DNA of 58,429 bases from Callorhinchus milii (Eukaryota): contig NW_024705261.1 of the NCBI RefSeq assembly GCF_018977255.1, positions 1-58,429 on the forward strand, written 5' to 3'. Below are positions 8,906-43,410 of this stretch, piece by piece (position 1 is the stretch's first letter; each line of letters begins with the position of its first letter). The notes under the pieces are model-generated. The model searched no databases. It was not told where the DNA came from and was given only the letters and a program-made list of their open reading frames with translations. Position numbers and translations under genes: made by a program.

Positions 8906-8910
8906 CCCTA

Positions 8911-12810: not shown

Positions 12811-13417
12811 GTTATCAACTGTCCTTAGCGCAGATAATAGAGAGTTTGGCTCTAGAAAGATTCATCGTAGTGGTGCACTTTTGATCATATCTTATCCTAC
12901 ACTTATGAATCACCTTAAGGTGCTATATGGTATAAGACGAGTACGCACAAAACGAGAAGAGTGGATGGGAGTGTAAAATGTGGTTGTGGCAAAGGCGTGG
13001 AATACGATGGAAATTAAATTAGTATATTGATGGGTAGTGGAACTGCTTGCATTAAGATCAACCCAAAATGAACCTTTCAAGGCAATGTTTATTTTAGTTT
13101 TATTTACCAGGAGACAAGCATGTGTAATAAAGGTCGTGAAAGCAACTTCTGGAATCCGGTCTTTGTCTTTCTTCACAACACTCCTTCACACTGCTGACAG
13201 ACAGCGTGAGGGGGATAGAGACACGTGCAGCCACGTGGCTGCCTGGACCCCCGCTCGCGTGGCCTTTCCCTCCATTCCAGTTCTGACCACGTGTTGTTCG
13301 TCTCTACCCCTATTTAATACCCGGGTCACGTGGTACCTTTCCACCAATCCTGGTTATCTTCTAGACTCCATCGTAGGCTCCCGGGACCACACAGACTCGT
13401 CTCCCCATTGGCTGTGG

Positions 13418-13447
13418 NNNNNNNNNNNNNNNNNNNNNNNNNNNNNN
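13418..13447. other. Gap of 30 N
   Basis: Direct reading. Confidence 0.99.
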
Positions 13448-16400
13448 TAGACCAGCGCTGCACATCAAGGTGTAAAGTTATCTCCCCACTTGGAATGTGC
13501 CATAGCGAACAATGTCGAGAAGCTTAGAATCGCCGGCCTGCATACCCCGACCTGACCGATTTTTTCGGCACCTCCTATCGGCATCACTAACCTTAGCGCC
13601 GTGCAACCGTGAGGGGCTTCACCTGTGCGTTGCGACTTGCCAATCGAAGACCGGCATTTATTCGCTCTGGTTAACTCATTTAACCAGGGATGAACTAGTT
13701 TTCATCCGCGTATCGACCGGAGATGTCTTTCAAACTCCTGCTACGAGTGTCGGGACGGCGAAGAGGACCAGGTCATATGCCGGGCTCTCGCGGCACGAAC
13801 TCTTCTGGGATGGTATTGGTAACCTCTCGTTTATTGTGCTGGGGTGGAGGATCTCCCACACGGGTTCTGGCGTGTTCCCCGTAAAATCTGTGCTATAGTC
13901 AAGCTCTGCTGTTGATTATTCTTCCGTTTGGCAATGCCCTCCCTAAAAAGATTGAAGCTCGAGTTCACCGGCCCATTAGCGGAATCCATGCTATCCATTA
14001 GTCAACGCCTAAGCAATCCGGGGTATCAGCATAGGGTGCGAGAGCAAACGACTACGAAAAGTAGACCCCTTTGTGAAAGTCCCACCGCCAATCCTTTTCT
14101 CGTAGAGTTAGCTTTAGTCGTCCTGAGGTTTTCGTATCCGACTATCGGGTCCCCGGAGGTGAGCGTCTTAGCTCGGCCGAGAATACATGAGAATGGCCGG
14201 TGATCAAAACCATTGAAAGTTGGACCTTCCATGCACAAAGTGAGAAGGGTCGGTAGAGCCGTGTGTCGATCATTCCTAGGAAGCATCCGTTGATCATGAG
14301 ACCTCTCCGGGGCAGCGAATCTCGATCCCGATGAACGAAACGTGGGACATGGGCCACACCTGCCCATACTGTGACAATTCCACAGTGCCTAGGGGAATCT
14401 CATACACTGGATGGTAATAGGACCGCATACGGATAAAGAAACAAGCCTTAGGCGAACCCCCGCAATAGAGGGTAAAGCCAGGACGATGCAGGCGACATCG
14501 ACTAACCAACGAACTCGGCAAAGCTCCTTTAAACACGATGATTATAAATGAAGGGGTGTCGTACCGGACAATATACGTCCCATAGCAGACACCACCGAGG
14601 CTTTATATCAAAGATAGTAATTAATATAACCCGAATTCGGGTCTGTGGTATCGTCCTTAATGGCGACCAAGAGCGCAGGGCCGCGGCAACCCATACTTTG
14701 TATTAACACTAGCAGGCATCCCCCTAACTCCCAAATCTGAATCGGAACAATGTTACACATGACGTGCGAATAATAGCTTGCATATACGGGACGAGCAGAG
14801 TTTGGACCAACCTGTGACAGCTGTAAGACAGGGTAGTCGTATTATGCCCGTTGTTTGCATACCCAACGCATCTTGAAGGTAATACTTACTACTTACAAGA
14901 AGTTTTTTCGAACCATCAAGCTGTCAGTTGTTGCGGCACTTGCCAATGATAGGCCCGTTAAGAGACATTGTTCTGTGCCCGTACATGCTGAGAATTAGCA
15001 GCCGCATGGTAGGGTCATGTCGGGCATCGTGTCCTACGTTAATCAGTCATTATCTAGGCCTGAGAGAGTGTAATCCTCGACATGTTGACTATTCGTATTC
15101 TCGATATATCGACCTAGGCTTGTGTGGTCGTTTCGCAACCAAAGCACCTGTGCGGCTACCATTAGAGATGGAGGGAGAGCGGTTCACCTAGCCCGCCGAT
15201 TCGGGCTGGCGTTCTTTGTGGGCTAAAAATACTTCATCAAACCTTGGCGTTAGCAGATATGATAGCTGCACGAGTTTGGATATTTTGGCACGGTCGTGGT
15301 ATCTTGAATGTTACGACTTGCACTTCACACCTTCGGGAGGCTGCAATGACAGATGGCGCGGAAAATATTAAACACGGCCTCGCAAACTCGCACGCACTGG
15401 TCGGTCAAGTTGGAAAGACACACCCGAATATCGCGAATGCATACCACTGAAACAGTCTTCCGAGCCTGCTATATAAGCGACGAGCGCAACGTGGATTCGC
15501 TTCCGGTGCCTCGAAGAGCATCGGGGTATCGTATCGGCTTCCACTGCAATTATTCTCTATCAGCCAGCCCGGTACAGCTATTCACGCTCCATTGCAAGTC
15601 AAGAATGAAGCACCCGCAAAGGTATATGGATAGTATTGATACAGTGGGTCGGGGAACTTTAACATTCGCCACCCGTATTTTAGGAAATACTCCGCCAGAC
15701 CTAGAAGGCCCCAAGCGGTCACGAAGTATGGAAGCGTGCCGACAAGTCGCCGGATATTGCTTTGGGGTCGCACATCTGGGTAGTAGAGGGGGATACTAGG
15801 AATACAGCATAGCGTGCGCGCGCTCTTAATATCGCTAGTCACAAGCGTCGATGTGCAACCAACATTATTCGGATCGCGGTACCAGTGCACAAAGAGAAAC
15901 CCTTGTGGCGCCGATTGTAAACGTAATGACGTGCTAGATTATATGTGCATAATTGCGCCACAATGACGACACGTACCCCGATCTCGCGATGATCATAAAT
16001 ATTGGGGTTGCTGGGACCATGCTAAACACAAATTCCCGCGGGCCCGCCCGCCGCGCGTGTCCCAGCTCTAAGTTAGTAGCCTCTGCACTTACGCCTCATA
16101 TTAGCTAAGTTCGCCAGGGGGATTTTGCTACTGGGCGGGGAACCACCACCCTTTACGTTGCTGTCACTCGGGCGCGTTTGCCTGATTCGCCCGGCTGCAC
16201 TAGTTCATCTTTGAGAACTTTGACTGGGGTAAGAATGTTGGCATCGCAGACTGATGGATATTTGGAGAGTTTAAAAATGATTACTTCGGTCGAAATTTCG
16301 TTCATTATATCAGATAAGGGTCTACTTCCGACCACAAGCGATGCTCGTTCGTTTAGTTTTCATAGACTAAAAGCGATAGACAGTCCTTCAAGCTGGGAAA

Positions 16401-19400
16401 GGAAGCCCAGGGGCCAAGAACGGTATAAGATGTCATAGCTCAGAATCCAAAGCTACTACCGCAACATTAGCAGTGGGCTAGATAGAAGTTTTCCATTCGG
16501 CAGGCTTATATAGGTCGTCCATACCGCACCTGGATGTCATTGTGAAGCCCATAGTAGTGTCGGAACTTAGTGGCGTCGCCCTCAAGACCGTATCATTGGA
16601 CCCCGGAAATACATTAGATTAGTTGAAGTTAGGAACAACCAAGCCAGGGTGCCAAGGCACCGCTGTTATTGTATCACAGGGATCAGCACCGTTACTACCC
16701 GAACTTCCACAGTTGCAACTTGCCTCTTGAGGGCGACGAATACACAAGGATCGGAACCTACTAAGCCCCGCTGCATGCGAGGTATTTGGCGTAAGATGCT
16801 TCTTCTTCTAAACCCTCTAGCCGCCCCTGCCTGACGATATGTGCGATAAAGTGTCAAGGCCCCCCGCCATCGAATCTAGCGCCCACCATGCTTAATCTTG
16901 CCATCCACCGTTACAGCCTGGGCGCGTAGAAAATAATCTGACAGTCGCGCGTTGACCCTTGGCAGGGTGTTAACGGCAGTACGGGCCTGCGACTAACTCT
17001 AGTTCTTAGGACATTAACTACCGATGGCAATGTATGAGGGACCGATTGGAAGATACCTTGACACACCCAAGCGTTCGGGCCATAACATACCACTATACTT
17101 TTTATCAGGGTGGCATCATGGAGGTTTCAATAGCACCGGGATTTGGAATGGTGGGTTCGGGCTGAGGTATTACTCGAAAATCATACAGCCTCTACTAGAT
17201 TCTCTCGCACGCAAGAACTCGGGAGATTGCTCAGGGTCCAAAGATTTTAGGTTCGTCGCTGGATCCTTAATCTGGCTGGCTGGAAACTTAAGCAGGCGGC
17301 TTTCACGTTTAGAACGGCGCGGCCGAGGGACTGATATGGTGACAAATTGCATAGTTGTCTCCAAATCTTGGACGCGTTATTTCACGCAGGATGAGTTGTC
17401 GAGCCTTGTGCCTTGGAGGTCTGTCACCGACAATCATCGTGACATGCTGTTTATCCTGCCCATCATTGGAGCACTCTACACATGTCTGTGCATTTACTTT
17501 GGGGCAGTAGGTAGTAGAAGCTGTCTCAGCCGCCGCCTGCCATGAAGCGTGCACACTCTGGAGAGGTGGTCACGCTTCTCTCGTGGACCTGCAAAGGAGT
17601 GGTGTTGGCTACCAGGTACTCAGTTGTTCCACCCCATAATGTCATGGGCAACGAAAAATGACAAGTACATTGATCAAGCTGGTCCACAACGTCGCAAGCC
17701 GCGGTGGCTATCGGGGGGCGTGGGACGATAAACGCACCGGTTAATCGTACTGACGACTAACGAATTAACACTGCGGGGGCTTGACATACTACGCACTCTT
17801 GCATGGCTATAGCTCATGAATGCGCAGCCGAGGAAGCTTGATGAGGGCGTACGAGCACCAATCGACGCGCTCGTCGTTCATCCGGTCAGGGAAAAGACTG
17901 TCCGGAGAAAACGGCGATGAGTACGGAGTCGCAAACTCTCGGCCAGGACCGAGAGTTAAGAAGATGAGCTAAAAAATTTAGCCCATAGTGAAGCCTTTGC
18001 GCCGGTGTACCGCAATGTCGAAAGTCGGCAGGTTCCGGAATGGACGAAATTCCTCTTCCCATCCCCATTTTTCCGGACTTTCAGGCTGATGTTAGAGTTC
18101 GCGACGACTAGCTTTAATTGGGCTATGTGAAAGGAAAAACCTGGTGGGTCGGTATTCGGTGCCTGTGCGAGCGGTCGTTCCATGGCGTACCAAGATCGAT
18201 ACGCATACCAAGGAGCGTTGGGCGGCGTGGTTTCGTACGGGTGATGGACTGTAAGGGTAAGGGTGTTTCATTCGCGGAAGAATGGTAAGGGACTAAGACG
18301 ACAATCTTTAATCATTAATGAGGGGTAGTCTAGCGACTTCCCGAGATCTCGGGAGTGAAGTGCACTCTCCGCCGAGACTACCTTCTCGTAACGTAGGCGC
18401 TCTGCATTAGTCAATTCCGGAGTGTAGCCGTTCACTGCATAAACGTGGCCGAGCAAAGTAGTAAATCAGATCGAGTTATCTTTCTCTAACGCGGGTTTCA
18501 GAAGTGGTTATGTTCGCGAACGGCTCAGTGCCGACTCGAGTGGGTTCTTCGCCGCGAGCAACTTAGTTTTCGAGATTCGTAAGGGGAGAGGCATGCTAAA
18601 TTCGCCACCACTGCACTCTTCTTTACGTGCAGTTGACTTTGGGCCTCATGGATAACCGAGTCAATTGGTCACCCTCTCTCCCAATCCCCACACCAGTCAA
18701 CAATTCTATATCATCTTTAGCCACTACACCAGCCACCATGTTCGCAGGCGCGACATCCGACCCAGTGGATCTCTCGGAGTCTACAAAGATACGAACGTCT
18801 ATCACCGTAATGGGTTTTGTCGCTAGTAGAGTCGATCCCGTTTTTTCCACGCGGGGTCGGTGTTAGTAGTAGCTTACCCTTCTCGCAACCGTTGGCTGGG
18901 GGAGGTTAGTCATGCGTTATGAGGATCCTATAAGAGAGCTTTTGCCGACAGTCTCACCGCTGACGATACTATAGTTATCCACTAGGGGGCCGAGGACAGT
19001 GTAGTGGAACGCGGTCATGTAAGTCTCGAATAACGTTAGCTCACACATTATTCCGGAGCGGTAGAGTGAGCTATTATCTAAAAAGGTCGACAGATGTTTC
19101 CTGTCCCTACTTAAATTACCTGGCGACCGGAGCTTCAGTATTTGGCAACCTAGACGATTAGTGAAAGAGGCCCGGCGCAAATCAAAGTTCCGCGAGTTTG
19201 ATAATCAGCGGGACCGTAAGCTCCATACGGTTGTGACAGGGAATGTCCACAGCTAGGCGGTTCAGGTTGTCCCCACTTTAAAGTAGGTGGCACCACCAGA
19301 GCACAACTACCATCATAACGCTAGACAATAGAGAGGGTGAGAGGTAATAGAAAGTCAACTCCAGATTAGCTAAGCACTTTCAGAGAAAAAATCGGTATTT

Positions 19401-22400
19401 AGGTGCAGGCAATTAGATGGGAAAGACCATTTCTAGAGCGAATGAGCTTGAGGGGGTGGGATTCACTGGGTGAGCGGCTTCACCTAAGTTTGCCTGCGAG
19501 GAGGTTTCAAGGATGCTGTTGGCAGTCGGTACACTACCTACTGACAGTAAGGATTGAGTCGGTCGTGTTGTGAGCTTCGAGAGTAAACAATCTTGCAATT
19601 TTCAGGGCGCGATGGAGACCAGCAGCAGGACTCCTCGGGCGGGGGGCGTTCTCATGGGAGCCGGATAGTCTGATATTACCCTGGTCTTTTACAAAATGAA
19701 CTGATTACAGCTGAGTAAGGGTAGACTTACGTTCTACTAGGTTTGAAAAAGGACAACTGATGCTCTGGTTCCTCGCTCAGCATAAAGCGAGAAGATGGAT
19801 TTTGTCAATGCGGGCTGTGAAATCCGCCCTCTACCCAGGGGTCCATAGCTAGGATCACTGTTGGATGAGCTAACTATTTGTTTAACCCACGATGTCTAAG
19901 GGCCTCTGACCGATCGGGGGGTTCGCTGTCAAAAGCGGAGTTCATGGGAGGCTCAGGCCTGTTTGAATTCATCATTATCGATGTGCTCGGAAGTAGGCGA
20001 AATGGTGGGACTCACCGGAAGCAGACGTGTATTGTTGAACCTTCTGCGAGTCGGCCTAGTGGACGCCGCCTTGACTATCTCGTTCGCAGCGATCACGGAA
20101 CGAAATGTTTTCGACTGAGCATTGTAACCCAAGGGTCACCGACAGGACTAGTGACGGACGGCATATGAAGAATTGAATTGACAGTAGTCCAGGGGCGGCA
20201 GAATTCTGACGTGCAGGTGGAGAAGATGCTTGCTCAAGATAAGATAACGTTCGGCAGGCGGAGCACGCGTCGGAGAAATGTTTGAGTATAATAGAGACGA
20301 CCCTAGTACAACTTCCGGCAATTTACTTTTCGAATACTACATGAATGAACCCTCTCCGCTGGCGCGGAATCCATATTACTCCGGCTCTAACGCTGATAAT
20401 TCGTTACCTTAGTCCTAATGCCCTGGGTTGCGATCAAGTTTCGGCCCAGAGTAACATCCCTTGGCCCTTTTTCGAGGAACAGAGGGAGGTGAACCTGTTT
20501 TAAGGGTTCATGAGCAACCGCCCTTGGTTCACAATAATGTCATAGCCATCCTAGAGATCTACTCTCGAGGAACCAACAAAGACTAAGTTGTGTGGTGCGG
20601 CAGGGAGATTCTCACAGCCCGCCGGCTGTGGGATATACAGCCAAGTGTTCGACAGTAAAAAGTCACTGAGCTATGAAGACGGCTGACAGCACTGCCTGTA
20701 GGTTCTGGGAGGTGGGGACCGTTTAACCAATGAGCGGGCTGTCAGCCCACCGTAACACAGTTTGGTAAGCAATATCATCCCCTCCCCATAGGCTGCATGT
20801 TCCATAAGCGTTTCGCGACTCAAAGGTCGCGTGCCTGAAAGAGTAGGCTGCGACCGCGACAGTACGCGACCTGGGGTGGATATACCAGGGTATCTCTTCA
20901 CTTGCTTGGCTCCTCCTTACCTAATTCCTGCGCCAGTAAACCCATACCAACGGCATAACGCACGAGAACCCACTGCTGAGGCGCCAAACAATAGCTGATT
21001 CTGTTGTATCTTGAGCCCGAACATGGTCCGGGCCGCTACTTGCGAGATTTATATGGCCTGGTGGGCACTTGTATCATAAACGTACCTCTATTTCACCGGA
21101 ATGAAGGGACAGGATAATATGTAGCGATGACAGCTTCCTCAAGTTCTACATATCTGCGCAGATAGAAGCCGAGTCCGGACGACCTCATTGGAAGGCGGTC
21201 TAACCTGGGTTACAATCAGGCATCAAGGCCGAATTACTGATTAGTCTTTAGCGAACGAACATATCCTCCGTAGTTAACGATAGAGTCTACTCAATTAAGG
21301 CGGACCTAAGGAGCGAGGATATCAGCGCTCCCTGGCCAATGTGGGGCACCACTGTGATGAATCAGCGCGTAAGTCTCGTGTAGAGCGTTTTATACCGTTC
21401 TACCAAAATTGAAGAAATTAAAGATGGGAAATTTACCAAAGGCGGGAGTAGCTGTGCGGGCGTATAGTGCTTATCACAGAGAGTGTCTTTACCGAGTGCG
21501 TAGGACCGAGTTCAAAGTACTTCTCAAAACCGAACTATGACCGTGAGTGAGGATTGAATCAGCACCATAAGCACCACACATGAGTTGGTTTTATAGCAAT
21601 CCGATCGCTACTGCGGACCTGCTTGCTCAAACTAGGGCCGCTCACTTTCACTACAGCTGAAGCCACCGGCCGGTGAATCCTACAAGCTAGAAGATCTCGG
21701 TTAGGCCAGGCTAGTATATGAGGCCGAGGCTAGCACGTGCTGTCCATGATCGGCTCCAAATTATTATTAAGTGTGGCGTTTATAGGAACGATATATTCGG
21801 CTGAGAGTAGATATCTTAGAGGTAAACGCCGCGCTGGCTAAGTTCTACGTTATTATAGTGCACTCTGTATAGTACGTGCCCCATTTACGCACGCTCCCAA
21901 CGGGCTCCTAGTAAAGACCAACCATTCCCGCGTAGGCTCATAAAATGGATGGTCTGTTTATATTAGAGGTATTGACAACTACGTTGAGGCTAATGTTGGC
22001 ACACGCCGAGGTATGAACGATCTGGACTTGTGAGCTGATCTCCCGGGACAGGCCCGTATCACAGAAATTATTCATTCACTAGAGCTTTTGGCTTGGCATC
22101 TACACACTATTTCACCTCTACTGATCCACAGAAACCCTCAAGCACAAATGAAGATGTCAATCATGTCTTTAATGAGCAATTAGACCCACTTGTGTGGTGG
22201 CGGTTACTAGTCATTAACCCATTTTCACAGGGGAGCGTACCTAGTCACATTCCGTGAGTAAAACCAGAATAATCGGGGCCCGATCGTGGTAGACGCTGGA
22301 GACATAGCACTAGCTGAGATCCTACAATTCTTGACGACACGGATTCTATGGCGTTGTCAAGCGTGCATGTAGGACGGGCGCCTAGTTGGATTCCTGGCCT

Positions 22401-25400
22401 ACAGGACATGAATGTAAAGCGGAGTAGGAGCATCACAGGGAGGCTAGTATCTAGTACGTCCTAGTAAAGAACAACTCGACGCCAAGATGGTTGAGTTCTC
22501 CATCCCTGCACCCTAGTGTGCACGGCCCCCGTCAAGCCGAAAGACCAAGTGGCCGAAACCGAGGGCGAAAGCGGGTAAACTCATGCACTGGTTTCTCGGA
22601 AATAGATTGTCACGCACATGTCTGAATGAGCCGTTCCTTCTCTTGGGCGCTCAAATCAACACATAATTGCGCCTAACGCTAGTCCCGTCCACTGGACTGG
22701 AGCTTACTGATTTACCGATGTGCGTGTTCTATGCGGACAATATAGTGCTGACAAGCTAGTCGAACGTGAGAAGGCGGGTGGGGGCAATTTGAGTTTAAAT
22801 GTGTAACTACGGGTGTACGTCCTAGTCACCCAAACTGGTGATTGGTGCTCTGGCCAGACTCACAATTGTTTGTCAAAACACTAGGTGGCAGGCGTAGAAG
22901 CGGTTACACAGATTGTGACGGAGACGCACTAACGGTGTCCGTTTCCAATAATCATCACCGTCACGTGGTCCTGCCAGATCAGTCGGCGAAATTCTGTAAG
23001 CCATAGGTCAGAGATGATCAGTCCTTAAGGAGAGTTCGCAACCGATCGACCAAAATATCTTAGTCCCTAGACATACAAGCTCTACGACGTGTATTACCAC
23101 AGGACCCATTTCCTAAGATGAGGGCACGATTACTCATTTTACGATTACATGTGCACGGCCGTACAAGTCGCCTACTGATTCGACGCTGCTGAGGTAGCCT
23201 AGCGGCTGGCGCGAGCCGTCTAGTAGAAAAATGGACGTATGGTCACGCAGCGTCCTCAGCGCAGGAAACAATGTCAGCGCCTAAACCATCCCGACAGCGT
23301 GGTCTGTTTTTGTCCACGCTATGCAGAATTGTTACTAAGTCTAGCGCTCGACTTTCTATATCCGGACAGCTACGCAGGACCTTCCGGCGAACGTGTCTAT
23401 GCCCGATGGCGTAGCATAATTTCTTAGAACATACGACCCAGACGGTTCAAGGTCATCGTATATTATTCGGCACACTTGGCATCCCCCTATACTCTGTCGC
23501 GTTGGACATTTCGTGATGTCTTGTCTATCAGTGTTTGTGTTAAGCGCTTACCGTGTTTTAGAGTTAACCGACCTATAGTCCTACAGAAGATCTTGAACCG
23601 CCAAGATGCCTTAGGTATTACAATTACTCAGACAGGTTCTGGTCACTATGTCTGTTGATATTGATGCTCGACCAAGCAGGCCTATCTCCAACTAACGATG
23701 AAATCCTCCTGACAGATGCGACTTCGTCCTATAAACATTATCAACTCGTTGGTCTACCAACCCATGTGACAGGATACATTCTGTAATAAAAGGCTTAACT
23801 AGTGCAAAATCGCTGGCATATAAGGGGCTCGTTCCACCGAGACCCATCGCAGTGAAGATCTTTCACTACCGACTCGATTCTTCAAAACTGATGTTTACTC
23901 GTTTGACCTAATATAGTTAATATTGTGATTGAATTAAAGGATGAAATTACGACGCCAAGGTTGTTTTATGTCCAGACAGAATCCCGGTCGACAATGCTCT
24001 CCGGCGAACAGAAATGTAACTTTGATAAGTAAATCAATGCGAGTTAGCGCACAAACTATCGGACCAATGCCGGGGTATGAACCTTGATGGCCCAAACTTT
24101 GTGGGCGGTGAGTGTAGATGTTGTGCCTGCACAGGTTTATGGGCTTCATGGCCGGCCTTCCTGACACCGCACGAATATTCCCTTACGACGTACTGTGCAG
24201 GCTGGTACGGTCCTATGAGGGTTAGATTGGCAACGGTATCCGCTCTCCTCGGCATCCCTGCATGGCGACCTCTGAACGAGGGATATCGGGTCAGGGAAGG
24301 GAATTAAAGTTGCCGGCCAGGACAGTGTCTACCCAGTATCGTCTCACCAACGGCAACTACAGTTTACGAAGATTATGGTTATGGCATGACACTGGATTGC
24401 CAAAGCGCGCGCTGTATCCCCCCTCACATAGGAGCCCTCAATCGTGCGTGCGATTCCCTAGCAAGCAGCTCGCACTTCTGGGGTATCGTCTCGACGGTAC
24501 TGGATAGTAGATTCTACAAATGAGTATGCGAAGCGACCAGTTACCGAACCAGTTCCATATTCTCGAGCGTGCCTGCCCGATCTAACTAGCTCAGGTGGCT
24601 CTCTAACCTATAGCGGAATGAACTGTTTGCATAGAGGTTCTACACATGGGAGTAGTCGAACGTAATAAGTGATCTATTTTATGTGTAGAACAATAGGACC
24701 AAAAACCGTTCGTTTTTCACCGAGGGAGCCCCCGAACTGACGCCGACAGATTCTTGGCCGGGCTTCCGAGGTTCAATATTAACTTGTATAAGTTTCAACC
24801 GCTGGTATAAGGCGTTTAAAGACGTTAGTGTGCACACTGGTGTGCTTCCTTAGTTTAAAGTATGGCTTGCGTCGGTAGCACCTTAACCATTACGGCCCTT
24901 CGGCGTGTGGCACCCTCGTGCGATACGATCTGGGATGTGTTGAGATCTTTGAACCTCTGTTCCTTCAGCTATCTGATACAGCGAAGTTAGCGGAATTTGT
25001 CCCCATGCTGAGCTACCATTAGCGCTACGCGGACAAAATAATATCCGGCGTCATTCGCTGCTGCGCTAAGCACTGGTAGAGTTTGTTGAGTACCGCCATA
25101 TCGAATAAGACAAACAGGTCCATACGCTGAGAGCTACATCTCAACCAGCATCCGTACGGCCCGTAGTAGGCACATCCGACACCGTTTGCGTAAAGTCTCT
25201 CTGGGAAACGCCGCCCCGCGTGCGTGTTCCACACCCCAGACTTTGAGTGTGTATCGTTGCCTAGGCCGGACAAGCCGACAGGTCTTACACCGATTGACTC
25301 ACAGCTCATGGTGAGCCACTGCTCATAGTAGCGTTCACACGAAGTTGGTAGAACTATTGAGAGGCTGCTGGCCCACGTCAGCAATCGATTATTATAGGGC

Positions 25401-28400: not shown

Positions 28401-31400
28401 GAGCTTTCCTCCCGGAGAGGATTTGCGGCGGCTACTAGAATGCTAGAGGGCTTCGAGCGAATCGAACAGTCTCGGTTCTGAGTCGCGTGGAAAACTACTC
28501 AACATCCAGCACATGTCGCGAACTCTAAGCCGAGCTCCCTCTCGATTGGAGCGTTAGTGTTATTAAAACAAGGTTCGAGAAACTCCACATACGATGGAAA
28601 CCCGGGATGCACTTGGTAGTGGCACGGTGGGCCGCGTGCGAATGAGCCCGAGCTGAGGATGATGAACGCATTTACTCGGAAGGAGTTAATGCCATCGACG
28701 ACAACACCGGATTCTTTCCAGCGCGCCAGTCTATTGTGCTTTAGGCAGAACGTCGGCCTTATAAGGTCCTGGAGAGGGTATGAGACATGTGCGCATTGCT
28801 CGGCTCACGACAGCATATAAATTTGTACAGAGCCAGTTAATGTTATGGACATCTCCTTTATTACCTAGAGATATGTGTTTCCAAAGATATAAAGCCCGGC
28901 ATACCTGCAAGAGAGATGAACTATCTAACGCATTCGGTTCGGGTCTGCATGCCATATTTTTCGGGAATCCATACCTGGTAATGGACAACTAGGGTCACTA
29001 GTTGTTCAATACCTAAGTGACTTATCCTTTATCCGCAAGGAAGTAAGCCCAATGATGTTCCTAGCCGCGACAGGCGGCAGTGGTGCGCAACCCTGCGGAA
29101 AATGGTCACGCAGCTCTGCTCAATCTAGGTCTGGGCCGTGAGTAACCGCTCGTGTACGGTGAGAGACCACACGGACTAGTGCGATTAGACTCGTGCTGAG
29201 CGTGCAACTTGAACACTCAGAGTATACTACGTTTGGCACCGTCATACACGCTTCGCCTCTCCGTACGTTTAGCCCACGTTTTCGACGCCCTGGCTTCGTT
29301 AGCTCAGACTACTTGCAGTGTTGTTTCATATATTACTTCGAGAAAGTTCCCTGATAAACAACGATGCGTTAACGCGATTGGTCACGCTGTTACGTACTGT
29401 CTCTCGTTTTGTACTGTAGGCCGTTAATTACTGTATGTGATGGAATAACTAAACACACTTTCATGACCGCTTCGCATCTAAATAGCTGGATAGCCAGATA
29501 TCCGAACTCAAAGGATGCCAAAGCGGTACAGGTATTCTTCGCAGGGGTAACCACAAACCGAACTTATCGTGCAGTCGAAAACGACCCCAGAGTTCAGGTT
29601 CCCAATTGGATGTATCTTACTTTGGTAGACTTGGGGACGTACCTAGTCTGACCGTATTAGAGACCGTCCTGCCCTTCCAATATGTGCCCAAGAAAAGAAA
29701 GGCATGTGTTCGTCGTAGTTATCCGGGTAGGATAGGGAAGCGGTGAATCGGGCGATCGCAAAGATTTAGTACTGAGCGAAGTTATTGACTGTTGGAGTTC
29801 GGTGCAGCTATTATTGTATTGTTTCCACTTAAACAGTCCCCGCAACAGGTATGTTATGCTCGTCGGAATTGCTACTTGGAGGCTCGAGGACTGTACGAAC
29901 TCAGTTTTCGACTACTTATCGATATGAACGTTTGGACTTCGGAATGCTAGAATGCCTATAAGGTGGGTACATTAGAGCGAAACGACAAAACAGTTCGACT
30001 AACGGGGAACCGATAGAGGAGCTCCATAGCTATAATGCATTAGTCACGACCCAGCGCTGCTAGAGTCACTCTTGGTCTGCACCGATACGCGCACCCTTGA
30101 AACACTCCTCAGTACAGGGCACAGAAAATGAGTTTCAACGGGGTTCGGATCAACGCCGGAATATATCCACGGGTCGGTCTGAAAAGGCTAACGGGGATGC
30201 CGAAGTGGCCAAATGTTAGACGTAGAGATTGGGCCCCTATCCAACAATAATTAGGAGGTGCATCCATGCCCGGCGTCAAGTAACCAGAATACTACCAGCA
30301 CCCAGAGCTACGCTAACAAGGTGGTGTAAGCTCGATTTGTACCGTTGAAACCAGTTGAGGAACATTCCCGATCGATCGGACGGGCAGCGATTGGTGCAGG
30401 GACCGCTTGTTACGATAGGATGCTTTTCAGATCGGGTATCTTTAATGATTGCCAATGAGTTTGGTCCACCGCCATCCAGAGTCGTCCAAAACTTCTTGTG
30501 CCTGCTTGCCGGATCGGCCCTCGAGCGTAAGACGACGTCTTTGCCGCCCACGTCACCATAATTAGACATCACCACTTGGAGCCCATACTCGAAGTGGGGG
30601 AACGGTAAAAAGCACACAAACTACCAAATGATTCGAAGACTGTGACCAAACAAAACGGACCACGGAAAATAGAGAACGATAGCCCCTCGCCCAGGCAACT
30701 TTCGCGCGCCGGCTGAAAGTCGCCTTCGTGGCATCATGCCACCTTCCTGGATGGGATGAGGGACCGGGGTTACCTATGTCTCACGTGTTCACACAAAGGT
30801 GGGGGAAAGCGGTATATCGATATTCGGACCAACGAAGATAATGAGCCGTCTTTCACGTTGCTCGGGCGCGTATGGTAGCTCAATGATATGACGCGAGCTG
30901 CTAGCATTGCACTCAAAGACGCGAGTTTGGCTGTATGTGCCCACCTGTACTGAGTAAAGGAAGGACAAGAGAACCGCAATCACCGGGCACCGAGGATCCA
31001 ATGCAGCGGGGAGGTGTGTCGATTGCCAAGCCGGGCTATCCATTAAACTTGCGAGGCCGTTGGCCTGCTCATGACGTCCTGGTGCGCAATCCACAGCGAC
31101 GTCCTGTGGCCAGGTTCCAGGACAGCTACTTAAGGATCGCGAGGCGTTTGCCACGTGTGAGTACCAAGATCATCTGCAGCATGGCTAACATATTTTCTAA
31201 AGATTTAGGAGATACGTCTAAGGAGCTTTAGACGGTTGACTCGGCGTGCAAGAACCCACATTACCGAATACGGGAGCTTATCCCTTCATATCAGCACTGA
31301 TCTGAGTGATGGTCCCTGTGCGCGATTTCATCCGGTCCTTATTTGGCGTAGACGGCTACCTCTACACGGAAGTATGAATATCTCTGGGTCCAAGGATCAT

Positions 31401-34400
31401 AGTAGCACTAGGGGACCGAGTGTTTGGCTCTGTCGTAGCTCTACGCCGTTAGCGGTACGTGTGTCGGTCGACCTTTCGGTGGAACGTGGTTCCCCGTCGG
31501 TAGCCTAATTTGGGTTAACTATTTCCTATGTAGAACCTATTTTTCTCACCCATAAGTCTGATTCGTGTATTCTTATTGTGGGCCGAACACAAGGAAACGG
31601 GTATACTCCCAAAGCGGCCGTTAGAGTGGACTAACCATGAATATGTCGCCCTATGATAAATTACGAGATCCAGACCAAGCTCACACTCTCTTAAGCCCAT
31701 GAGACCGTAGACGCTACAACTCACGGCCCTACGCTCAGGCGCATCCGACCATCATCGCCAATCGGGTACCGAAAGGTGGTCTCTGGCCCCATCGACGTTC
31801 AGGCTTTGCACCGCAATATCCTGCGCTTTGCCTTAGGAACTTATTGTGTTAGCGGGATAGGGACCGCTACACGTGAAGGGATTGTGTGTCGGCGGCAGTT
31901 GAACGAACGAAACCGGCTCTAGGCGCGAAGTTCCTCCGCGCGCGTCCTTCCGTCAAGCAAGCCCACATAGTTAGGATTATGACTAGAACAATAGCATCCG
32001 CTCGAGCAGGGGTTGCTCGACTGCCTGTTCGTTCACATAAATCACGCTGAAGCCCAGTCCCCACTTGCTGTGTTCAACTTGCCAGCTACAGGATAGTCTG
32101 TTGAGCGGACCATCTGTGCGCCGTACATTTTATGTAACGAGTATGGCTGGCTAGCCTTGCCACATCTGGATTCAGAATGGCCAATTAGATAAGGAGATCG
32201 CCCCAACGAGGGTATTCATGTGAGCTATCCGTCGATAACCCGTTTCATATGGTTGCGACGCTTTTGCAGATTTCTTCTACTGGCACCTAGTGGCTCGCCA
32301 GATACTGCACATAGCGGAGGTCGCCCCTCCCTTATGACCGTTTATGATGGATTCGCCGCTTAGTGCATATATTACCAGCAACCAGAATCTAACTGGTAGG
32401 GTCAATTTGATCAGATGCACAGTAATTCATGCCCACCTCACCGGCTGGAGTGATAAGTTCAGCGGCCGACGGCTATAACTTAGTATATACCACCAATGTC
32501 TTGTGGTCGGTCACATAACAGCAACAAATAGTACAGTGGTGTTACGTATCAATCGTATAGTTGTTCAGCTCGAGCAATCGCCTGGTCATAATGTGACTGA
32601 GTAAAAAAAGCGTGCCGGATTTCCGTAGGCCTCCCAAGAAACACCCCGGGTGTGTCGAGAGAGGAACGCGCCCGATTGCCTTCCTGCGGACCATGTCGGA
32701 TTCGTCCACCCTGCTCCGATATTCGCTTCAGGCGATTTGGTCACCAGTACCTACGTAACCGGTAAAGTTCCTTCACAATCACAGTCCCCGGGTGATGGAC
32801 TAACACCACGTGCATATTGTTATAGACATTGGTCCGCTTTGGCTCTTACGTTGCTACTATATGGGGTTGCGACGAGATTCTCAACAATAACTATGCGCCA
32901 GAACACTTTTCGGATACTTTTGGCTTAATCAATTAATAACTAGATGCCAAGGTTCCCGAAGGCGCAGTTTGTTTTATGGATGCCCAAGGCAAAGCATTTG
33001 AGTGGTACACCCTTAGGACTTCCTGCTCTGCTCTGTGAAGTCAGTCATGAAGTATCGTTTTGCGAAGTGTTTACAGCTATTGGTCCGTAGAGCCGCACAC
33101 TCTAGGGTTAGGTAGTCTCATAGTAACCCAATCACGTAAGCGTACTGTACGCTCGTTAGCATCTTTATTGTACACTAGGAACCCGTTTAAGTTTACACCA
33201 CTGTCTTCTTCCTATAGCATGATGTGTGGTCGTTGCGACGCAGGTTGGATGTGGAACTCATAAAGGACGGAAACGAGGCGCCGAAGCTCAATATAATCCA
33301 TACCGCATTAACCGGTCCGTACGTCACCAATGCAGGGTAAGGAAACGAGTACGTCAACCCCTAGCGCGTCCATGTCGGTAGCAGTAAAGATGTACCACTG
33401 TTTTAAACCAAATGGGACCGAGAAGCAATGAAGGGTAGGGAGTTACAGTTTGGTTGAGTCAGCAAAAATTTGGCTCGGGTCTGACCTAGAAGTGTCCTGG
33501 TATCTTAGAGTGCTCCAGTCCTTCGATGTTGCGCCACCGGGAGGGTGAGACGTGCTGATCCTTCACAGTGTGGTTTGACTTTTCATCCGGTGAATCGGGC
33601 TTTCAATTAACGGCGTCGGTGGGCCTTCAACGTAGTATCACATTGCGGGACTCATACCGTCTAGTCAATCTGGGTAGCTCGTAAAGAACCTAATGCACCA
33701 CACAAATTGCAATATCGGTAGAACCCGGCGTTCATTCCCCGCTATTTTGGCGTCACGAATAGGGTATGGTAGGACTAAGACGGGAGCCAACTGACATCGA
33801 TCATCATCAGCGGATAACTGAGCAGTCCTTCGGTTGATAGCTGAATAATGCTTCGAAGAGCGCTGGGAACGCCCCATCAGCAATATATGATAGACGGGAA
33901 ACTTCAGAAAACCCACCCCGGCGGGGGCAAATACCGTCGACCACCGTAGGACACTATCTCGTAAGCATTAATATTCCCCAAGCAACGATCTCAACACGTG
34001 ACTGTATTTGCCGGCTCCGTCATACAGGGAACTAGATATATGGAGACTGTTTACCTATCCGGACTATCGGAGCACTTAAAAAGCGCATAGTCGGCACAGA
34101 AGGCGGGTGTTCGGTTGCTGTGGTAATTTTGAGCACGCGGGAAGTGAAAAATACCACTGACTTCCCAGCTCACTAGCCTCGCTTGCCAGCCCGTCCGGCT
34201 AGACGCCTGTTCACGGTCAAGAGCTGGAAGTAAATTGCTTTACCGAGATAATCGGCCCATACCGACCTTGATACCCGACGTACTCCAGACACACAACAAT
34301 ATTGCGACGCCTCCTCTCCGCACACAGATGTGATATCATAGAGACATTCCCGTACTCAAGGACCGCGTAGACGTTTTCTCGGCACGGATCATTTGAAACT

Positions 34401-37400
34401 TATAAAAGCCTAACTAGCATCGGACGAGATGGTTATGGATGAGACGGAACCGATTTACCGCCGGGCGCCGTGTCAGGTGTGCTTATGTAGGTTAGGTAAT
34501 TAAAATGCATTAGTTTTTCTAATCCCTTTTGAGTAGAACACGGCACCCCTAGCCTAACTTTCGTTTCCCCAGAGGTCTATTCCTGTAGTATGACGTACGA
34601 ATATAATTGGCTAGTGAAGAAGTTGGGTCACACTAGTAACTCTGCCTAAGCCTGGGCTTACGCTGGAGAGGAGGTCTCACGACGGCTCATTGGCGTGTCA
34701 ATCCCACCGAACATCACGGCCCACGAGCGTTATGCATGCGGACTGCGAACGTACTCGCTTGATGCTCAATGAGAAGCGGGCGCCAGGAGCGTATATTTTT
34801 ACTGTATGACGCTAGCGCCCGGGTAGCTATTTACTTGACTGATATACGCATCTTGCGACCATTTGAACGCTTTCAGTTATCATGCCCCTAATCATTGCCA
34901 CCCGTTTACGGGACTAGCGTTGGCGGGGCTTCCCTGGAAGTTCGTCGGCGAAACCGCTGATGGTGCAGCAACTGCTGGGTAAGCGCAGAAGAGGACCCGC
35001 GTTGAATCCTGAGTTCTCCTATAATAGCACAATTACACATACCCCATTTCGATGTAGTCGCTGATCAGATTTAGAACCGTCGCTCTCACGCGTGTCGGTC
35101 CCCAGCATCACTTGCGCCTGTCGCAATGGTGTAAGTTCCCCATAGAACGTAGTGGTTCAGAGTATTTAAGTCGCTGTCGTCTAGCCTTAACTGCCGACTT
35201 TCGAACCTGGCACAGCCTAAATCGGCTACACAGGTGACGTTAGTCGGTCTCCTCTTTTAGTGCTAAACAGGTACTTGGGGATTGTTAAATTAAAGTCGAG
35301 TGTTCCTTCTCTCTTCGGGGGCATTGGTTCCCTACAGTGGACAGGGTACGTTTTCTGCACCGTACGCGAATAAATACATCTAACCTCAACAGATGTGAGT
35401 CCTACATCACGCCGAGGGCCAGTTATCAGCCCCAAGCCCGTTTCGGACTTAACTAATACAGGTCGTATTGAATTTCGACGTGGGACAGAGTACAGAGAAT
35501 CTATACCAACAAGATCTTTAGGTTTCATTCCGCAAGGACCTTCTCGCCGCGTTAGCAGGCTTCAAGATGACCTTCTCAATTTTTATAGCGTAGTACCTTC
35601 ATGATACCGGGATTGGAGAGTATATTTGTTTGGGACCATATTTTTACGGAGCACAAAATATCGACCTTAGTAGCAGGGAGCTTTTGCCCGGAGAAGGAAA
35701 GGTGTGCGGACGAATCCCCACCTCTAGGAAGGGTCAGGATGTAGGACGCGGCTGACAGCCACCCTGTCCCGTTAGAAGAGGCGAGGAACTATCGAATGCT
35801 TCTTGTTCAAATCGATTACCTCTAGTGCTCTAGATCATCTCTATCGTTGCAGGCTTCTCGCATTTAAATGCCCTAGCGTGGAACTCTGAACCCGCTGAGA
35901 CATCCGCAATGTCGTTTTGCCCTCTACTAAGATTCATCGAGCTGTTCACTGTGCACAGTAATTACCTCCTATGGAAACACGAATGTGCGGCTGATAGGTT
36001 TTATTTAATCTGAAGCCCCCTACCCTATGAAATGGGAGCGGGTCAATACGCTTTGTCAGCACTCTACCAGTATCGATTGCGTATCAGAATTTCTCAAATC
36101 ACCGACGTGTTGCCACCACAGATAGGGTAACGCACTTAGCGCAATTACATCCCCTCATACTGTTCCGGATACAGTATTGGTCAGTAGAAGAAAATTCGGC
36201 GACTCGCCTCCCGCTGGTACATTGAGTGGCAGAAGACGTGGAATCGCCTTCATAATAGTTTAGTCTGATAAGACCTAAGCCGGCGCAGGATTGCACTACC
36301 GGCGGTGTCACGGGTATAACCCAGAGGAATCGCTGAAGCTCTCACTAGCGACCGTATCAACTACTGAAAGGCACTTGATCCGCCGTTGGTATAAGATCGG
36401 AGTTAGATGCTCCAGGCTACGATCATGGTGTCCCGGATAATGAGTTTTGCGTCAGGAGTATGAGACAGTGCTTGTAGCCCAAGGGCCAATTCTGACCACT
36501 GTTTCCGTTATTGGTGCGGAATACGTTCTCGTTCCGACTAACGAAATTCGGAGGCTAAGAATATATATAAAGAGGGCAATGTCGGGCCAACCCGTGTATG
36601 GGGAGAGAGTCCCTATTCGTTCCGATGCACAGTCTGGTGGTACCGGTGACACCGGCGACTCGGGGTGGCAAGTGCACTATCCAGTCTGCAAACGTCATTT
36701 TCTAGGACACATACCATTTTACTAATATGAATTACGGAGCTTCCCTCTCCAACCACTTATTGCCGGTCCGCACCATGTACTGGTCGGTTGGGAAGTCGAG
36801 ACACCCGAGTAGGGGTTAAGCAGAACCGCGGTGTAAGCCGTGAGGCACGTGTCCTTGCTAACCCAGGGCCACGCCGTTGTTTTGCATGTTTGAGGGTTTA
36901 AAAGTCGAAAATTGCCGTACACCGGTTAATGTATGCTGGCTGGAGAATCATCCTCATTGCTTCATTAGCGGTACGGCTGCCGAGGCAGGAGCCAAGGTGG
37001 GCGTAGGGGAGGGTAGGTATGGAATCATGTACCTTAGAGTTCATGCGAGGACATCCCAGCTGATCATTGTCCGACTCTGCATCCGTAGTATCTTACGATA
37101 TGCTCTTGAGCGTATTTTACACCGCTAGCAACAGATCTTCTGAATACCCTCAGTAGCTATCGCGTATCCGGGGCGCTTGTCCTATGACTAGGATGCGTCT
37201 GGGGTCACGGCTAAGTATGAGTGCTGTACTCTAGGGGACATTAAATCAATCAAAGCGCCCAGGAAGGTCATTGAGTTGAATTCTTTTGCGCACGCTTACC
37301 CAATGAGATCGCGGATCTGTAGGTTAAGAGAGAGTGTGACGATCGCGGACCTGAAGTTACCGTAGGACGCCGCCCATAAACTGGCGACTTAAGAAAGCAA

Positions 37401-40400
37401 GCCTGCTACTTGAGACGACAGTAAACATCATAGCGGTGCGCTGGATACTACCACCTATCACCCACGCTTGCCAGACCGGGGGTACGCAAACAGAACTATT
37501 TCTAGAGGATTGTTCTTAATGTATGACCTCGAGTCTTGGCCATAGAAAAACTTCCGATTTGAAGAGCCTAACCGGTGTGGCACACACAAATGTCGTAATC
37601 GTCGCTATCATTTTGCTTACTCAGTCGCAGGATGGAAGAAGTGGGTTGCAAACAGGCTGACGACAGGGAGTACTGTGAACCCAAGGTTCTCATTAAGATG
37701 ATTTCTCAACACTGTTACTGCGCGATCCGCGTAGACACTGAGCGTTAAACAACCTCTAATAGTATGAGGTACCGACGGTACAGATACGTGCCCTCAAACT
37801 AAGGACCCTACGGCAACGCGGATCCCACTACCCGTTTCGCTATGTTCTACCCCAGGCGCGGAGGTGGCGGACGCCTCAACATACACAATAATTTTTGTAC
37901 TTCCTGAACTTAAATCCACCATGGGAGTGAGAATGTCAAGGTGGCAAGTAGCGTTTACCCAGCACGGCCTCGAAGTTTTCGTCGAACAGTGGTGTTCCGT
38001 CATCCCACGCGTCGTAGATGGTACATTGAAACTTCTTATCGATGCATGAATAGGAAACAATATCCATACACCTAGTTCGAGCCGCCGCTCGGGCTTTCTG
38101 TCGCGCTTGCCCGGTAGGGTAAGAACAGACGCCGAGTGGCGTTACATACCTTGTCGATCATCGAGACCTGGTTTCGCCCCGAGACGGCCTCGCTAACAGA
38201 AGGGATCTTAAAGCCTATAGGGCTTCGAGCAAAATGGGGACACCCTTCAAGGGGAGGAACGTGTGCACTCTGCTCTCAATCATATATCACGAAAATCCGG
38301 GATCTGAACACGCACTTGTTCCCGCCAAGCTCCTCAACATTGCTTAGTGGGCTCGAACCCGTACCCTTTTGGGGCAGGAGTACGTGAGTTACGCCGAGCC
38401 TCGACTAACGCTAGACATCATTAGATGGCTGGCATGGGTCGGGCTACCCCTGACTGACAGCGAAGCGATAACCTTGCTTGGGGGTCTATTGTCACATCTC
38501 TTGCGGATCACTTGCAATACTTCTACAGAGGCGCAGAGCAGGACTGGCGATATTTTCAACGCGCGGACACTATGTACTATGACTAAATCTCGATTAGTAA
38601 ACTCGAACTGTGTAATACCGCCAGGTCCATGCATCCCAATTGCAGGTTCCCAGATGTCCTCCCTACAACGCCCATCGAGATCTAGCCGACTGGGCTACCA
38701 AAAGAGAGAATTTCGTGCACGCTCCTTTATACGTGGACGTACGTATTGGATATTCATCGGTCTGTCTTTAGGAATTAGTACAAAGCGGATCCTAACCTTA
38801 AGACACTGTTCCGTATACGAGCATGTATGCTGGACATTTATCAGATTCGTCCGGGGACCATAATGTGAATTCGTCTAACTCCTGAACCCGTATGGATTTT
38901 GATTATCTAATTTAGACCGCATATCCAACGTGTCATGAAGGAAGTTGAAGGTTATTATGGCTGCTGCTGTAAGCAGCGACCCATTTTTGGAGCCAATCAG
39001 ATAACGCGTCGACTTGCGATAGATAACGATCGTCATTGGAGCTTTCACGATTCTTTGTCACCTAGAGCCCGCCTTGGGCCGACTGGGCTCATGCGAATGT
39101 TACGTGCGTCCCATTCGCTTCTGCCTGCCAAGATGGGTACTATCCCCTTCAACTAATGTTAAAATTAGAAGCGTAGAGTAAGGTGCGAGAGTGCTAACAT
39201 TTCTGAGATTGAAGCGCGCACCATCTTTAATCAATGAGGCACAACTTTTGGTATGGCCCGCATACGGCGCTGGCCAGTCGGGCGAGTGAATAAATCAAAA
39301 TGCGGGTCGGATACTTCACCTAGATCGAATGTATGGAAAATTGGCATAGCTTAGAATCGAGTGAGCTCCATATCATACTCGGTTAGGTTAGCCCAACTGG
39401 GATGTCAGCTTATCTGTCTTTTCACGACGTGGAACTTGAGGCTCCGTACTCGTTTACAAATTAAGAAGAGGTCTTACCCTGAATTGGCCTTCATAAGAGT
39501 ATACTTAGCCTCTGACCAAGTAGGGGGGTCCTCGACGATTCGATATATGAAATGTTGGCATATTGGGCAGCTGATGGCCTGTTCCGGATATCAAGCTGAA
39601 ACCGTGGGGAGAGGGCTCTATCAATAGCTAACGGCAGTCCACTGGGAAAAATCGCTTCTCGGGAAATAGACCGGTATCGGTCGTTTTATATGGAACTTAC
39701 TAGTAAGGGCGGTAGTGTAACACGAAATAAACCTGTGCTGCCTCACCAGTTCTTCCTCACTGCGAAGCGCTTAGCTTAAGCTCTTAAAAAGACTCACAGC
39801 TAGTAGCCGGTGTGACTGGGCCACTGGAAGATGGATACGCTCTCGTTAGTCTAGTTCTGTCCAACTATCAAAAGCACTACCCGAACTAAGGCCTCTCATC
39901 GGTACCACGTCAGCAATCGGTGCACCATCCGCACGATCACGGCAATCCTTTTCGCCGCGGGATACGAGGAGTGCTTTCAGCGTGTCCATGCGGTCTTAGC
40001 CCCTAACGGTTATTAAGTCAAAACGGTCAGTCACGAGTAGATGACGCTCGTTTCTTATTAGGATCTAATTGTAGGGAATCTGACGTTTACTCCAAGAGGC
40101 TTGGTCTTAAGGTATCAAACGGTGTGCAGTTTTGGTAAGTGGGGGTTATCTATTGATGACGTGCTTCCACTCACTTTCTGCAGCTGACCATTAGGGTACC
40201 TTGCTATTGGCATGCTCACCGTCATCATGGAATTAGGTTTATCGGTAACGGCTGTTCTACATACCGAATTTATGTGGATTAACTTCCTGCATAATAGAGA
40301 CGCCGCGCGACACTCTAATCGTAAAGTGAGTCTCATTTTACCTCCAAACGAAAACGAACAACTTAGAGTTATGTGAAACAAAGGATAACGCCCAGAGCGA

Positions 40401-40447
40401 GGGAAGGGATTGTATAACTCGTTTAACGAGTAGGCTTTCGCGACCAA
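13448..40447. other. About 27 kb of featureless, random-like sequence (probably non-biological filler or artefact); right boundary approximate
   Basis: Looks ~50% GC throughout (one 60-bp spot count gave 30/60), frequent CpG and TpA, no microsatellites or long homopolymers, no copies of the TE families that fill both flanks, and the longest ORF (194 aa) has no recognisable motif. Confidence 0.8.
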
Positions 40448-40540
40448 TATTATTCATAATCCAAACCCAAACGTTGATTATGATTTTGTAATCTCGGTGC
40501 GAACGTGAATCGTCAGTCTGGTTTAGTCTGATGACTCATA

Positions 40541-41400
40541 TGTAACGCCGTTTCGCGAGGACCCCCCCCCCTTCCAGGTTAATTATTACGGACAGCTGCT
40601 TCGGTGGAATAACTTTATTCCTCCAATAAATCGCACACACGGACACACACGGACGCAGCTGTGTCCACGCACACAAACAAAAAAATGTATATGTTCCGGC
40701 CCTTTGAACAACTCGAAAAAAAACAGAGTGGATTTTCCCGATATAAGCACAGGCGCAACCCCATCAACAGTATACCACCGGGGGTCAGCTCACCACCGGG
40801 GGTCAGCTCACCACCGGGCTCAGCCCCTCACCTCGTCTCGTCACCGCCAACGAAGGAGCATCTCCCATCACCCAGAATGGCGATGTTCGCGGAGTAGCGA
40901 CGTGCATTGACAAGCTGAGGTCTGCACCACCTAAGAAGAATCGCTACACTGAGCCGCCGAGCTGCGAGTGAAACTGACGGAGATTCCAGTTATCATTCTC
41001 GAGCCAACGAAGACATCAAACGTCCACCCAGCAACGAACGAGCGCATCGTTCATCGCCAGAGCGCCAGCGAATGCGCCGTGTGTTTAATACACACACCCA
41101 GATCGACCAGCACCAACGAGAACCGACTCGTCATCCAGCAGTGGAAAGAGCCTGATCGAACGGCCGTGAGGAAGAAGAGAGCGCCAGCGAATGCGCCGTG
41201 TGTTTAATACACACACACAGATCGACCAGCACCAACGAGAACCGACTCGTCATCCAGCTGTGGAGAGAGAGGTGACAGCCTGCCGAATGAGCCGCCACGC
41301 CGTCAGAGCTACAGAGAACGAGCACCGCCGACGCCGCTCATCTCCCAGCGGAGAAAGTCGCGGCTGCAACCCCGCACGGGCGAGAGGGACATTCTCTTAG
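40541..41400 (-). mobile_element. Probable LTR-like repeat end with internal duplications
   Basis: Minus strand ends ...GGCGTTACA at 40541 with AATAAA about 75 bp upstream (TTTATT 40614-40619); contains an 18-bp tandem CACCACCGGGGGTCAGCT (40773-40824) and an 81-bp direct repeat (41059-41139 / 41178-41258). The other end and TSD were not found. Confidence 0.35.
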
Positions 41401-41402
41401 CC

Positions 41403-41569
41403 CAGGGGTCGGCAACCAAAATAACAAGAAGAGCCATTTCTTTCCAATTCGGTACAAAATTCAGTATTTCAAGAGCCGCAATGCATCTGAGTACATACTG
41501 TACATATCGTCAAGAAGCAGCCCGTAAAGAGCCGCATGCGGCTCCGGAGCCGTAGGTTGCCGACCCCTG
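41403..41569. mobile_element. hAT (Charlie/Buster-type) MITE, 167 bp
   Basis: Perfect 15-bp TIRs CAGGGGTCGGCAACC / GGTTGCCGACCCCTG; 8-bp TSD TCTTAGCC / TCCTAGCC with the central TA typical of Buster-type hATs. Confidence 0.92.
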
Positions 41570-43225: not shown

Positions 43226-43316
43226 TACTCGTTGGTTCTTTTGGTAAAGTCACGTAGTTAGAACAAATAATAGATCATGATGTTTCGATCGCAACTCAAG
43301 CAATCGTCATCAGGTG
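43226..43316 (-). ncRNA. Degenerate PLE hammerhead plus conserved 3' motif
   Basis: CAC-CUGAUGA-C-GAUUGC-uugaguu-GCGAUC-GAAAC-AUC-AUGA (43275-43316); stem II intact, ACGU palindrome and stem I hit by CpG-type decay. Confidence 0.6.
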
Positions 43317-43410
43317 GTCTGCTTGATATATGAAACGCCCTCTCAAGAACACGACGAGGTTCTTGAGAGAAGGTGATGCCGATAGCAAGGCGGTGGTGGC
43401 TGTGCACACC

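What the first reader, a model, noticed from the sequence alone, without database searches (positions are those of the whole stretch)
13448..40447. 27-kb random-like block after a 30-N gap: likely artefact or synthetic filler, not a hidden system
Seen: the flanks are saturated with repeats, microsatellites and homopolymers, but this block has none. It looks ~50% GC, shows no visible CpG or TpA depletion, and its short ORFs are Arg/Ser/Leu-rich as expected from random codons. It begins exactly at the N run, and AT-rich genome-like sequence resumes near 40448, which would make it about 27,000 bp, a suspiciously round length. Inference: randomised or shuffled sequence, or an assembly artefact. 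A real viral, symbiont or gene insertion of this size should be ORF-dense or contain TE insertions. I could not find a planted motif or array by eye, but a weak one could be missed.
Basis: partly seen in the sequence, partly recalled or inferred. Interest (0 to 1): 0.7.

Follow-up and report, generated by a model that had tools for sequence, protein, structure and literature searches.

The report
Computer-generated filler in a genome assembly
This 26,874-base block is not DNA from the animal: a standard computer random-number generator reproduces every letter of it, and the same number stream fills gaps in at least 18 other scaffolds, so likely about 1% of this assembly is software filler that should be masked.

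Summary
Artefact, proven. Window 13448-40321 (26,874 bases) is output of the drand48-type 48-bit linear congruential generator. I recovered its state; one draw per base, with cut points 0.26/0.51/0.76 in A,T,G,C order, regenerates the block with 0 mismatches, against about 25% identity outside. No motif, gene or array can hide in it. The same stream, without refitting, matches 18 of 69 first-pick 10-kb stretches from other scaffolds, all in scaffolds of 52-110 kb. Every block start seen follows an N run (30 N wherever seen whole), and two scaffolds' blocks abut in the stream. One script run therefore likely rewrote long scaffold gaps as 30 N plus random bases. The stream spans at least 10.05 million draws, about 1% of the 991.5-Mb assembly if all survive. 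Which program did it, and why, is not shown. No biology, but a real curation problem.

The parts
13118..13417 (+). Real interspersed-repeat copy cut off at the gap (left contig end)
   Evidence: About 40 other places in G000 match at 74-85%, most running to the last base before the N run. Seven other copies go on matching each other for 156-500 bases beyond this point; the block matches none of them.
13418..13447 (.). 30-N run that heads the filler; N positions use no generator draws
   Evidence: In fetched loci 8 of 8 whole 30-N runs, and one cut by a locus edge, are followed directly by filler; 0 of 3 25-N runs and 0 of 7 single Ns are. The C525 and C530 blocks abut in the stream across a 30-N run.
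13448..40321 (+). Pseudo-random filler: consecutive outputs of the 48-bit LCG (a=0x5DEECE66D, c=0xB), one draw per base, cut points 0.26/0.51/0.76 for A,T,G,C
   Evidence: Finite-difference test z=26.5 against 25.6 in a positive control. State recovered, cut points read off, 0 mismatches in 26,874 bases.
40322..41328 (+).
   Evidence: Identity to the generator is 20% in 40323-40447. Matches to other contigs begin at 40323-40324. Five other copies match each other over 308-520 bases upstream of this point; the block matches none.

Best explanation
The block is the letter-for-letter output of a drand48-type pseudo-random number generator, likely written into a scaffold gap by a script that replaced a long run of N with 30 N plus random bases. 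SHOWN: generator constants, one draw per base, base as a fixed function of the draw, exact boundaries, the same stream in 18 other scaffolds always on the + strand, the N run before each block start seen, no draws spent on N, and both window junctions inside repeats that run on in other copies. INFERRED: (1) the code was an integer 0-99 draw with <=25 A, <=50 T, <=75 G, else C, an off-by-one that gives 26/25/25/24%; (2) the language was Perl or C (recalled: Perl's rand and C's drand48 use these constants); (3) block length plus 30 is the scaffolder's estimated gap size, with most blocks at 15-40 kb as large-insert links would give; (4) nearly all draws between the sampled blocks are still in the assembly, so about 10 Mb is filler; (5) the motive was to keep gap length while cutting the N share, for a downstream tool or an archive limit on N content. 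Step 5 is the weakest, about 0.4.
For:: of 6 base-to-number mappings only ACGT and its mirror pass the 16-term difference test (z 26.5 and 19.0 at two lag sets; control 25.6 and 19.8; other mappings below 2); state recovered at stride +1, 60 of 60 exact; the other 15 of 16 stride/mapping pairs failed; sorted by draw value, 26,853 bases show only 4 base changes; 0 mismatches in 13448-40321; about 25% identity in both flanks; independent state recovery in 8 of 20 stretches, all within 9.03 million draws of the window's state in a cycle of 2^48; matching to the stream finds filler in 18 of 69 first-pick stretches; 5 of 5 shuffled blocks give no hit. C525 filler ends and C530 filler begins at draw -8,999,179 (one shared base, as a chance match would give). 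N-run census; the seed-free test agrees with the stream match in 49 of 49 stretches.
Against: Nothing against the generator itself. Against the inferred steps: abutment was seen for one pair of scaffolds only; a search for a second gap in C527 found none. The stream's start was not found. An N-share motive fits poorly for C522 (5,240 bases, 9% of the scaffold) and C527 (26%) unless they were joined later; the window itself is 46%. The C528 block runs to the scaffold's last base, so some cutting came after filling and some draws may have been lost. No paper naming such a tool turned up.
Confidence: 0.97

Rival explanations
1. Same generator output, but written in after release by a downstream data-handling step (a mirror, benchmark or this scan's own preparation), for example as a mask or planted control.
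For: I only saw G000 as held here and could not compare it with the archive record.
Against: The filler sits at natural contig ends inside repeats. It is confined to 52-110 kb scaffolds (18 of 34 stretches in C170-C660, 0 of 35 elsewhere). Its stream order does not follow the present length order of the scaffolds. One block is cut by a scaffold end (C528). All of this points to filling at an earlier assembly stage.
Confidence: 0.06
2. A real insertion (virus, symbiont, horizontally acquired DNA or very old decayed repeat) that happens to look random.
For: It is present in the assembly as held; the longest stop-to-stop frame is 202 codons.
Against: Exact regeneration of 26,874 bases from a 48-bit state. 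The 202-codon frame is reached in 12% of shuffles. 0 of 4 of the longest block frames hit Pfam, while 7 of 9 flank frames do. A 601-base piece occurs once in G000.
Confidence: 0.001
3. A side effect of a common aligner or assembler that turns N into random bases (BWA-type low-bit draw, glibc rand modulo 4, Mersenne Twister), or a shuffle of real sequence.
For: BWA converts non-ACGT reference bases to random nucleotides (PMC2705234, passage), so such a route exists in principle.
Against: lrand48 low two bits: no match in the whole 2^19 cycle under 24 mappings. glibc lag-3/31 test: |z| at most 1.7 against 81.6 in the control. MT19937 recurrence: 0.49-0.51 against 0.0 in both controls. Unequal cut points and a kept 30-N head point to a purpose-written rule. 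A shuffle would not be a fixed function of each draw.
Confidence: 0.02

Closest known systems
Replacement of N by random bases inside read aligners (BWA index; PMC2705234, passage read)
   Same: Ambiguous reference positions become pseudo-random A/C/G/T.
   Different: In BWA it stays inside the index. Here it is in the assembly sequence, uses the high bits with uneven cut points, and keeps 30 N; the low-bit draw (recalled as BWA's) was tested and failed.
Modelled centromere sequence of GRCh38 (PMC5411779, passages read)
   Same: Non-observed, computed sequence placed in a reference where a gap had been.
   Different: GRCh38's models derive from real satellite reads and are declared, with advice to treat them apart. 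This filler carries no information from the organism and is unmarked in the sequence apart from the 30-N head.
drand48 / Perl rand 48-bit linear congruential generator (constants recalled, confirmed by the fit)
   Same: Multiplier, increment, modulus and one draw per output all fit exactly.
   Different: Nothing; which program called it is not identified.

Membership tests
drand48-type 48-bit LCG output | High-order differences at power-of-two lags vanish modulo 2^48 | tested here: met
   z 26.5 and 19.0 against control 25.6 and 19.8
drand48-type 48-bit LCG output | One state with a=0x5DEECE66D, c=0xB regenerates every letter | tested here: met
   0 mismatches in 26,874 bases; no refit needed for 18 other scaffolds
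drand48-type 48-bit LCG output | Stream starts from a seeded state (low 16 bits 0x330E) | tested here: inconclusive
   One such state lies 694 draws before the block, but filler exists 9 million draws earlier, so it is chance; the start was not found
Scaffold-gap filler | Sits between two contig ends, with no relation to either flank | tested here: met
   Both junctions cut repeats that run on in other copies; the block matches none
Scaffold-gap filler | An earlier assembly version has N of the same length here | not testable with these tools
   No earlier version or archive record is held
lrand48 low-bit N replacement (BWA-type, recalled) | Block occurs in the 2^19-period low-bit cycle | tested here: not met
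   No 20-mer match at 5 places, 2 directions, 24 mappings
Mersenne Twister output without rejection | Bits obey the degree-19937 recurrence | tested here: not met
   0.49-0.51 against 0.0 in two controls
glibc rand() modulo 4 | Three-point correlation at lags 3 and 31 | tested here: not met
   |z| at most 1.7 against 81.6
Biological insertion (viral, symbiont, mobile element) | Coding density, codon periodicity or protein-family hits | tested here: not met
Modelled satellite sequence (GRCh38-type) | Built from real repeat monomers | tested here: not met
   No repeated 20-mer and no real tandem array in the block

The most novel reading that the evidence does not exclude
A released vertebrate-scale genome assembly carries about 10 Mb (1%) of unmarked pseudo-random sequence from one run of a script, unreported so far, and the same practice has touched other public assemblies; the seed-free difference test used here would find and mask it base-exactly in any archive.
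Probability: 0.5. Interest if true: 0.55.

Novelty: not a real feature. Interest (0 to 1): 0.3.

Why it matters
Biologically it does not. For users of this assembly it does: the filler passes as finished sequence, so it lowers the gap count, raises ungapped length, looks like unique non-repeat DNA, and can yield false orphan frames or false 'deserts'. Because the stream is deterministic, every filled base can be masked exactly and the original gap sizes and processing order read back. For this scan, any other note on random-looking DNA after a 30-N run in this genome can be closed at once. The seed-free test needs only about 4 kb and could be run on other assemblies.

Tried and rejected
Generators rejected: lrand48 low bits and small power-of-two periods; glibc additive generator, MT19937 without rejection, and short GF(2)-linear generators (linear complexity N/2). 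Python's random.choice with rejection, PCG and 64-bit LCGs were not tested; not needed once the fit was exact. Largest chance-scan values: |z| 4.94 in the all-lag correlation and 4.85 among 130,977 three-point tests; not pursued. The seed-form state 694 draws before the block was rejected as chance. Repeat finder output in the block is short, gapped, chance-level pairs. Sequencing runs: 20 of 21 listed rows hold part of 35400-45300, best share 0.22, none half; 4 were laid and the other small shares are no evidence. Laid on 32400-48300, the 14 bins wholly inside the block have depth 0-3.2 in all four runs, against about 1,200 to 2.7 million in the 15 bins wholly in the flank. These are contigs of other samples and cannot prove absence, so this is not used as support. 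A second gap in C527 that might abut its known block was sought and not found. 'Filled because over 50% N' is not supported as a simple rule: filler plus N is 9-69% of scaffold length in the 8 scaffolds measured. Paper searches (listings only) showed no title on such filler; the library lacks most subscription papers. Earlier-finding look-ups: one search showed 8 of 16 fits, none on this topic; one search showed none.

Full report
Setting. The window is a whole 58,429-base scaffold, G000:C520, of a 991,535,955-base assembly in 1,762 pieces. Earlier notes of this scan call the genome a chimaera-type cartilaginous fish (unchecked here). The flanks are ordinary animal repeat DNA with retroelement remains.

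Checking the observation. A 30-N run lies at 13418-13447. Over 13448-40447 the dinucleotide ratios are 0.97-1.03. k-mer chi-square z values against shuffles are -0.55 to 1.01, against 24-52 in the flanks; 0 of 200 lags reach p<0.001; GC varies as a binomial; long frames number 22 against 20.4 expected. There is no period-3 peak.

Which random source? Randomness statistics cannot prove an artefact, so I tested for software generators. The lrand48 low-bit cycle did not match. The glibc additive generator and the Mersenne Twister failed, while their positive controls passed. A 16-term finite-difference test for a 48-bit power-of-two linear congruential generator gave z=26.5 and 19.0 at two lag sets, matching the drand48 control (25.6, 19.8). 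Only the ACGT mapping and its mirror passed; the other four mappings stayed below 2.

Exact recovery. A stepwise search recovered the state at stride +1 with the drand48 constants (recalled, then confirmed by the fit); 15 other stride/mapping pairs failed. Equal quarters gave 97% identity with no indel. Sorting bases by draw value showed only four changes of base, so the base is a fixed function of the draw. After an equivalent quarter-turn of the state the cut points are 0.26, 0.51 and 0.76 in the order A, T, G, C. With these, 13448-40321 is regenerated with 0 mismatches in 26,874 bases; identity is 25% in both flanks and 20% in 40323-40447. The simplest code is an integer 0-99 with <=25, <=50, <=75 tests, an off-by-one (inference). 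No motif or gene can be hidden in a block with no deviation from the generator.

Boundaries. The block ends at 40321, or a base or two earlier if the last matches are chance. It is not 27,000 long. Sequence from 40323 matches repeat copies elsewhere. The left flank ends in a repeat whose matches run to the last base before the N. At both junctions other copies of these repeats go on matching one another, and the block matches none of them. This is what two contig ends at a scaffold gap look like. Contigs of four public runs from four studies cover the right flank deeply, so the flank is real DNA.

It is not alone. Of 20 stretches of 10 kb from neighbouring scaffolds, independent state recovery succeeded in 8, all within 9.03 million draws of the window's state. 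Matching to the stream within 40 million draws either way raised this to 10 of 20. Further first-pick samples gave 2 of 20, 5 of 9 and 1 of 20 (tally): 18 of 69 in all. The 31 other stretches fetched were aimed at known blocks and are left out of this count. All hits lie in scaffolds C170-C620 (110-52 kb): 18 of 34 stretches in C170-C660, and 0 of 35 elsewhere, including 0 of 15 from chromosome-scale scaffolds. That last sample is small, and stretches were placed mid-scaffold, where gaps are likelier. Five shuffled blocks gave no hit. A seed-free test agreed with the stream match in 49 of 49 stretches, so no second stream was seen.

Anatomy of the filled gaps. All blocks are on the + strand. 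Eight of 8 whole 30-N runs in fetched loci, and one cut at a locus edge, are followed directly by filler; 0 of 3 25-N runs and 0 of 7 single Ns are. Blocks measured end to end: C522 5,240; C527 14,981; window 26,874; C525 about 28,009; C521 28,051; C530 31,485; C513 36,100; C512 40,389 (for five of these the middle was not fully fetched, but both ends keep one stream offset). The C525 block ends where the C530 block begins in the stream, so N costs no draw and gaps were filled one after another. The C528 block runs to the scaffold's last base. Known draws run from -9,027,188 to +1,020,823, a span of 10.05 million, or 1.0% of the assembly if all survive. That extrapolation rests on one abutting pair.

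Mechanism. Shown: generator, rule, boundaries, shared stream, 30-N head, gap-like junctions. Inferred: a Perl or C script replaced each long gap with 30 N plus random bases, keeping the estimated gap length. The motive is unknown. Cutting the N share for a tool or an archive limit is my best guess (about 0.4); it fits poorly for C522 (9%) and C527 (26%). I could not compare with the archive, so a downstream insertion keeps about 0.06.

Comparison with known things. BWA turns non-ACGT reference bases into random nucleotides inside its index (PMC2705234, one passage). GRCh38 holds declared, read-derived centromere models in former gaps (PMC5411779, five passages). This case works like the first and sits in the assembly like the second, but is a member of neither. 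Searches (listings only) showed no title on undeclared generator filler in an assembly; the library is incomplete, so this is weak. Searches were used only to find the two papers cited.

Verdict. Not a biological feature. Interest 0.3, all of it for genome curation: an exact, maskable artefact that likely covers about 1% of the assembly.

Noticed in passing
window 48129-53374 (+): Frameshifted LTR-retrotransposon copy: aspartyl protease, reverse transcriptase, RNase H and integrase domains in separate frames, in Gypsy-like order. Described only.
   Followed up: partly
window 8906-11279 (+): A second, more decayed copy of a similar retroelement (reverse transcriptase and RNase H hits; an integrase-like frame by eye).
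   Followed up: partly
window 45215-46033 (-): Reverse transcriptase fragment (PF00078, E 4e-27), non-LTR type by eye.
   Followed up: partly
window 4436-5398 (-): A 320-codon stop-to-stop frame, hydrophobic in its second half, with no Pfam hit.
   Followed up: no
window 40421-40461: A 41-base word just right of the filler recurs at 91-95% in about 30 other contigs; possibly the end of a mobile element.
   Followed up: no
L028:776, L054:6032, L089:295; single Ns in L023, L031, L059, L083, L085, L087, L100: Two other gap marks (25 N and 1 N) occur without filler; 25 N is recalled as a long-read gap-filler's mark, so several gap-handling steps were likely used.
   Followed up: no
L119:1-7628 (G000:C528:50001-57628): Filler runs to the last base of the scaffold, so a scaffold was cut at or inside filler after filling.
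   Followed up: partly
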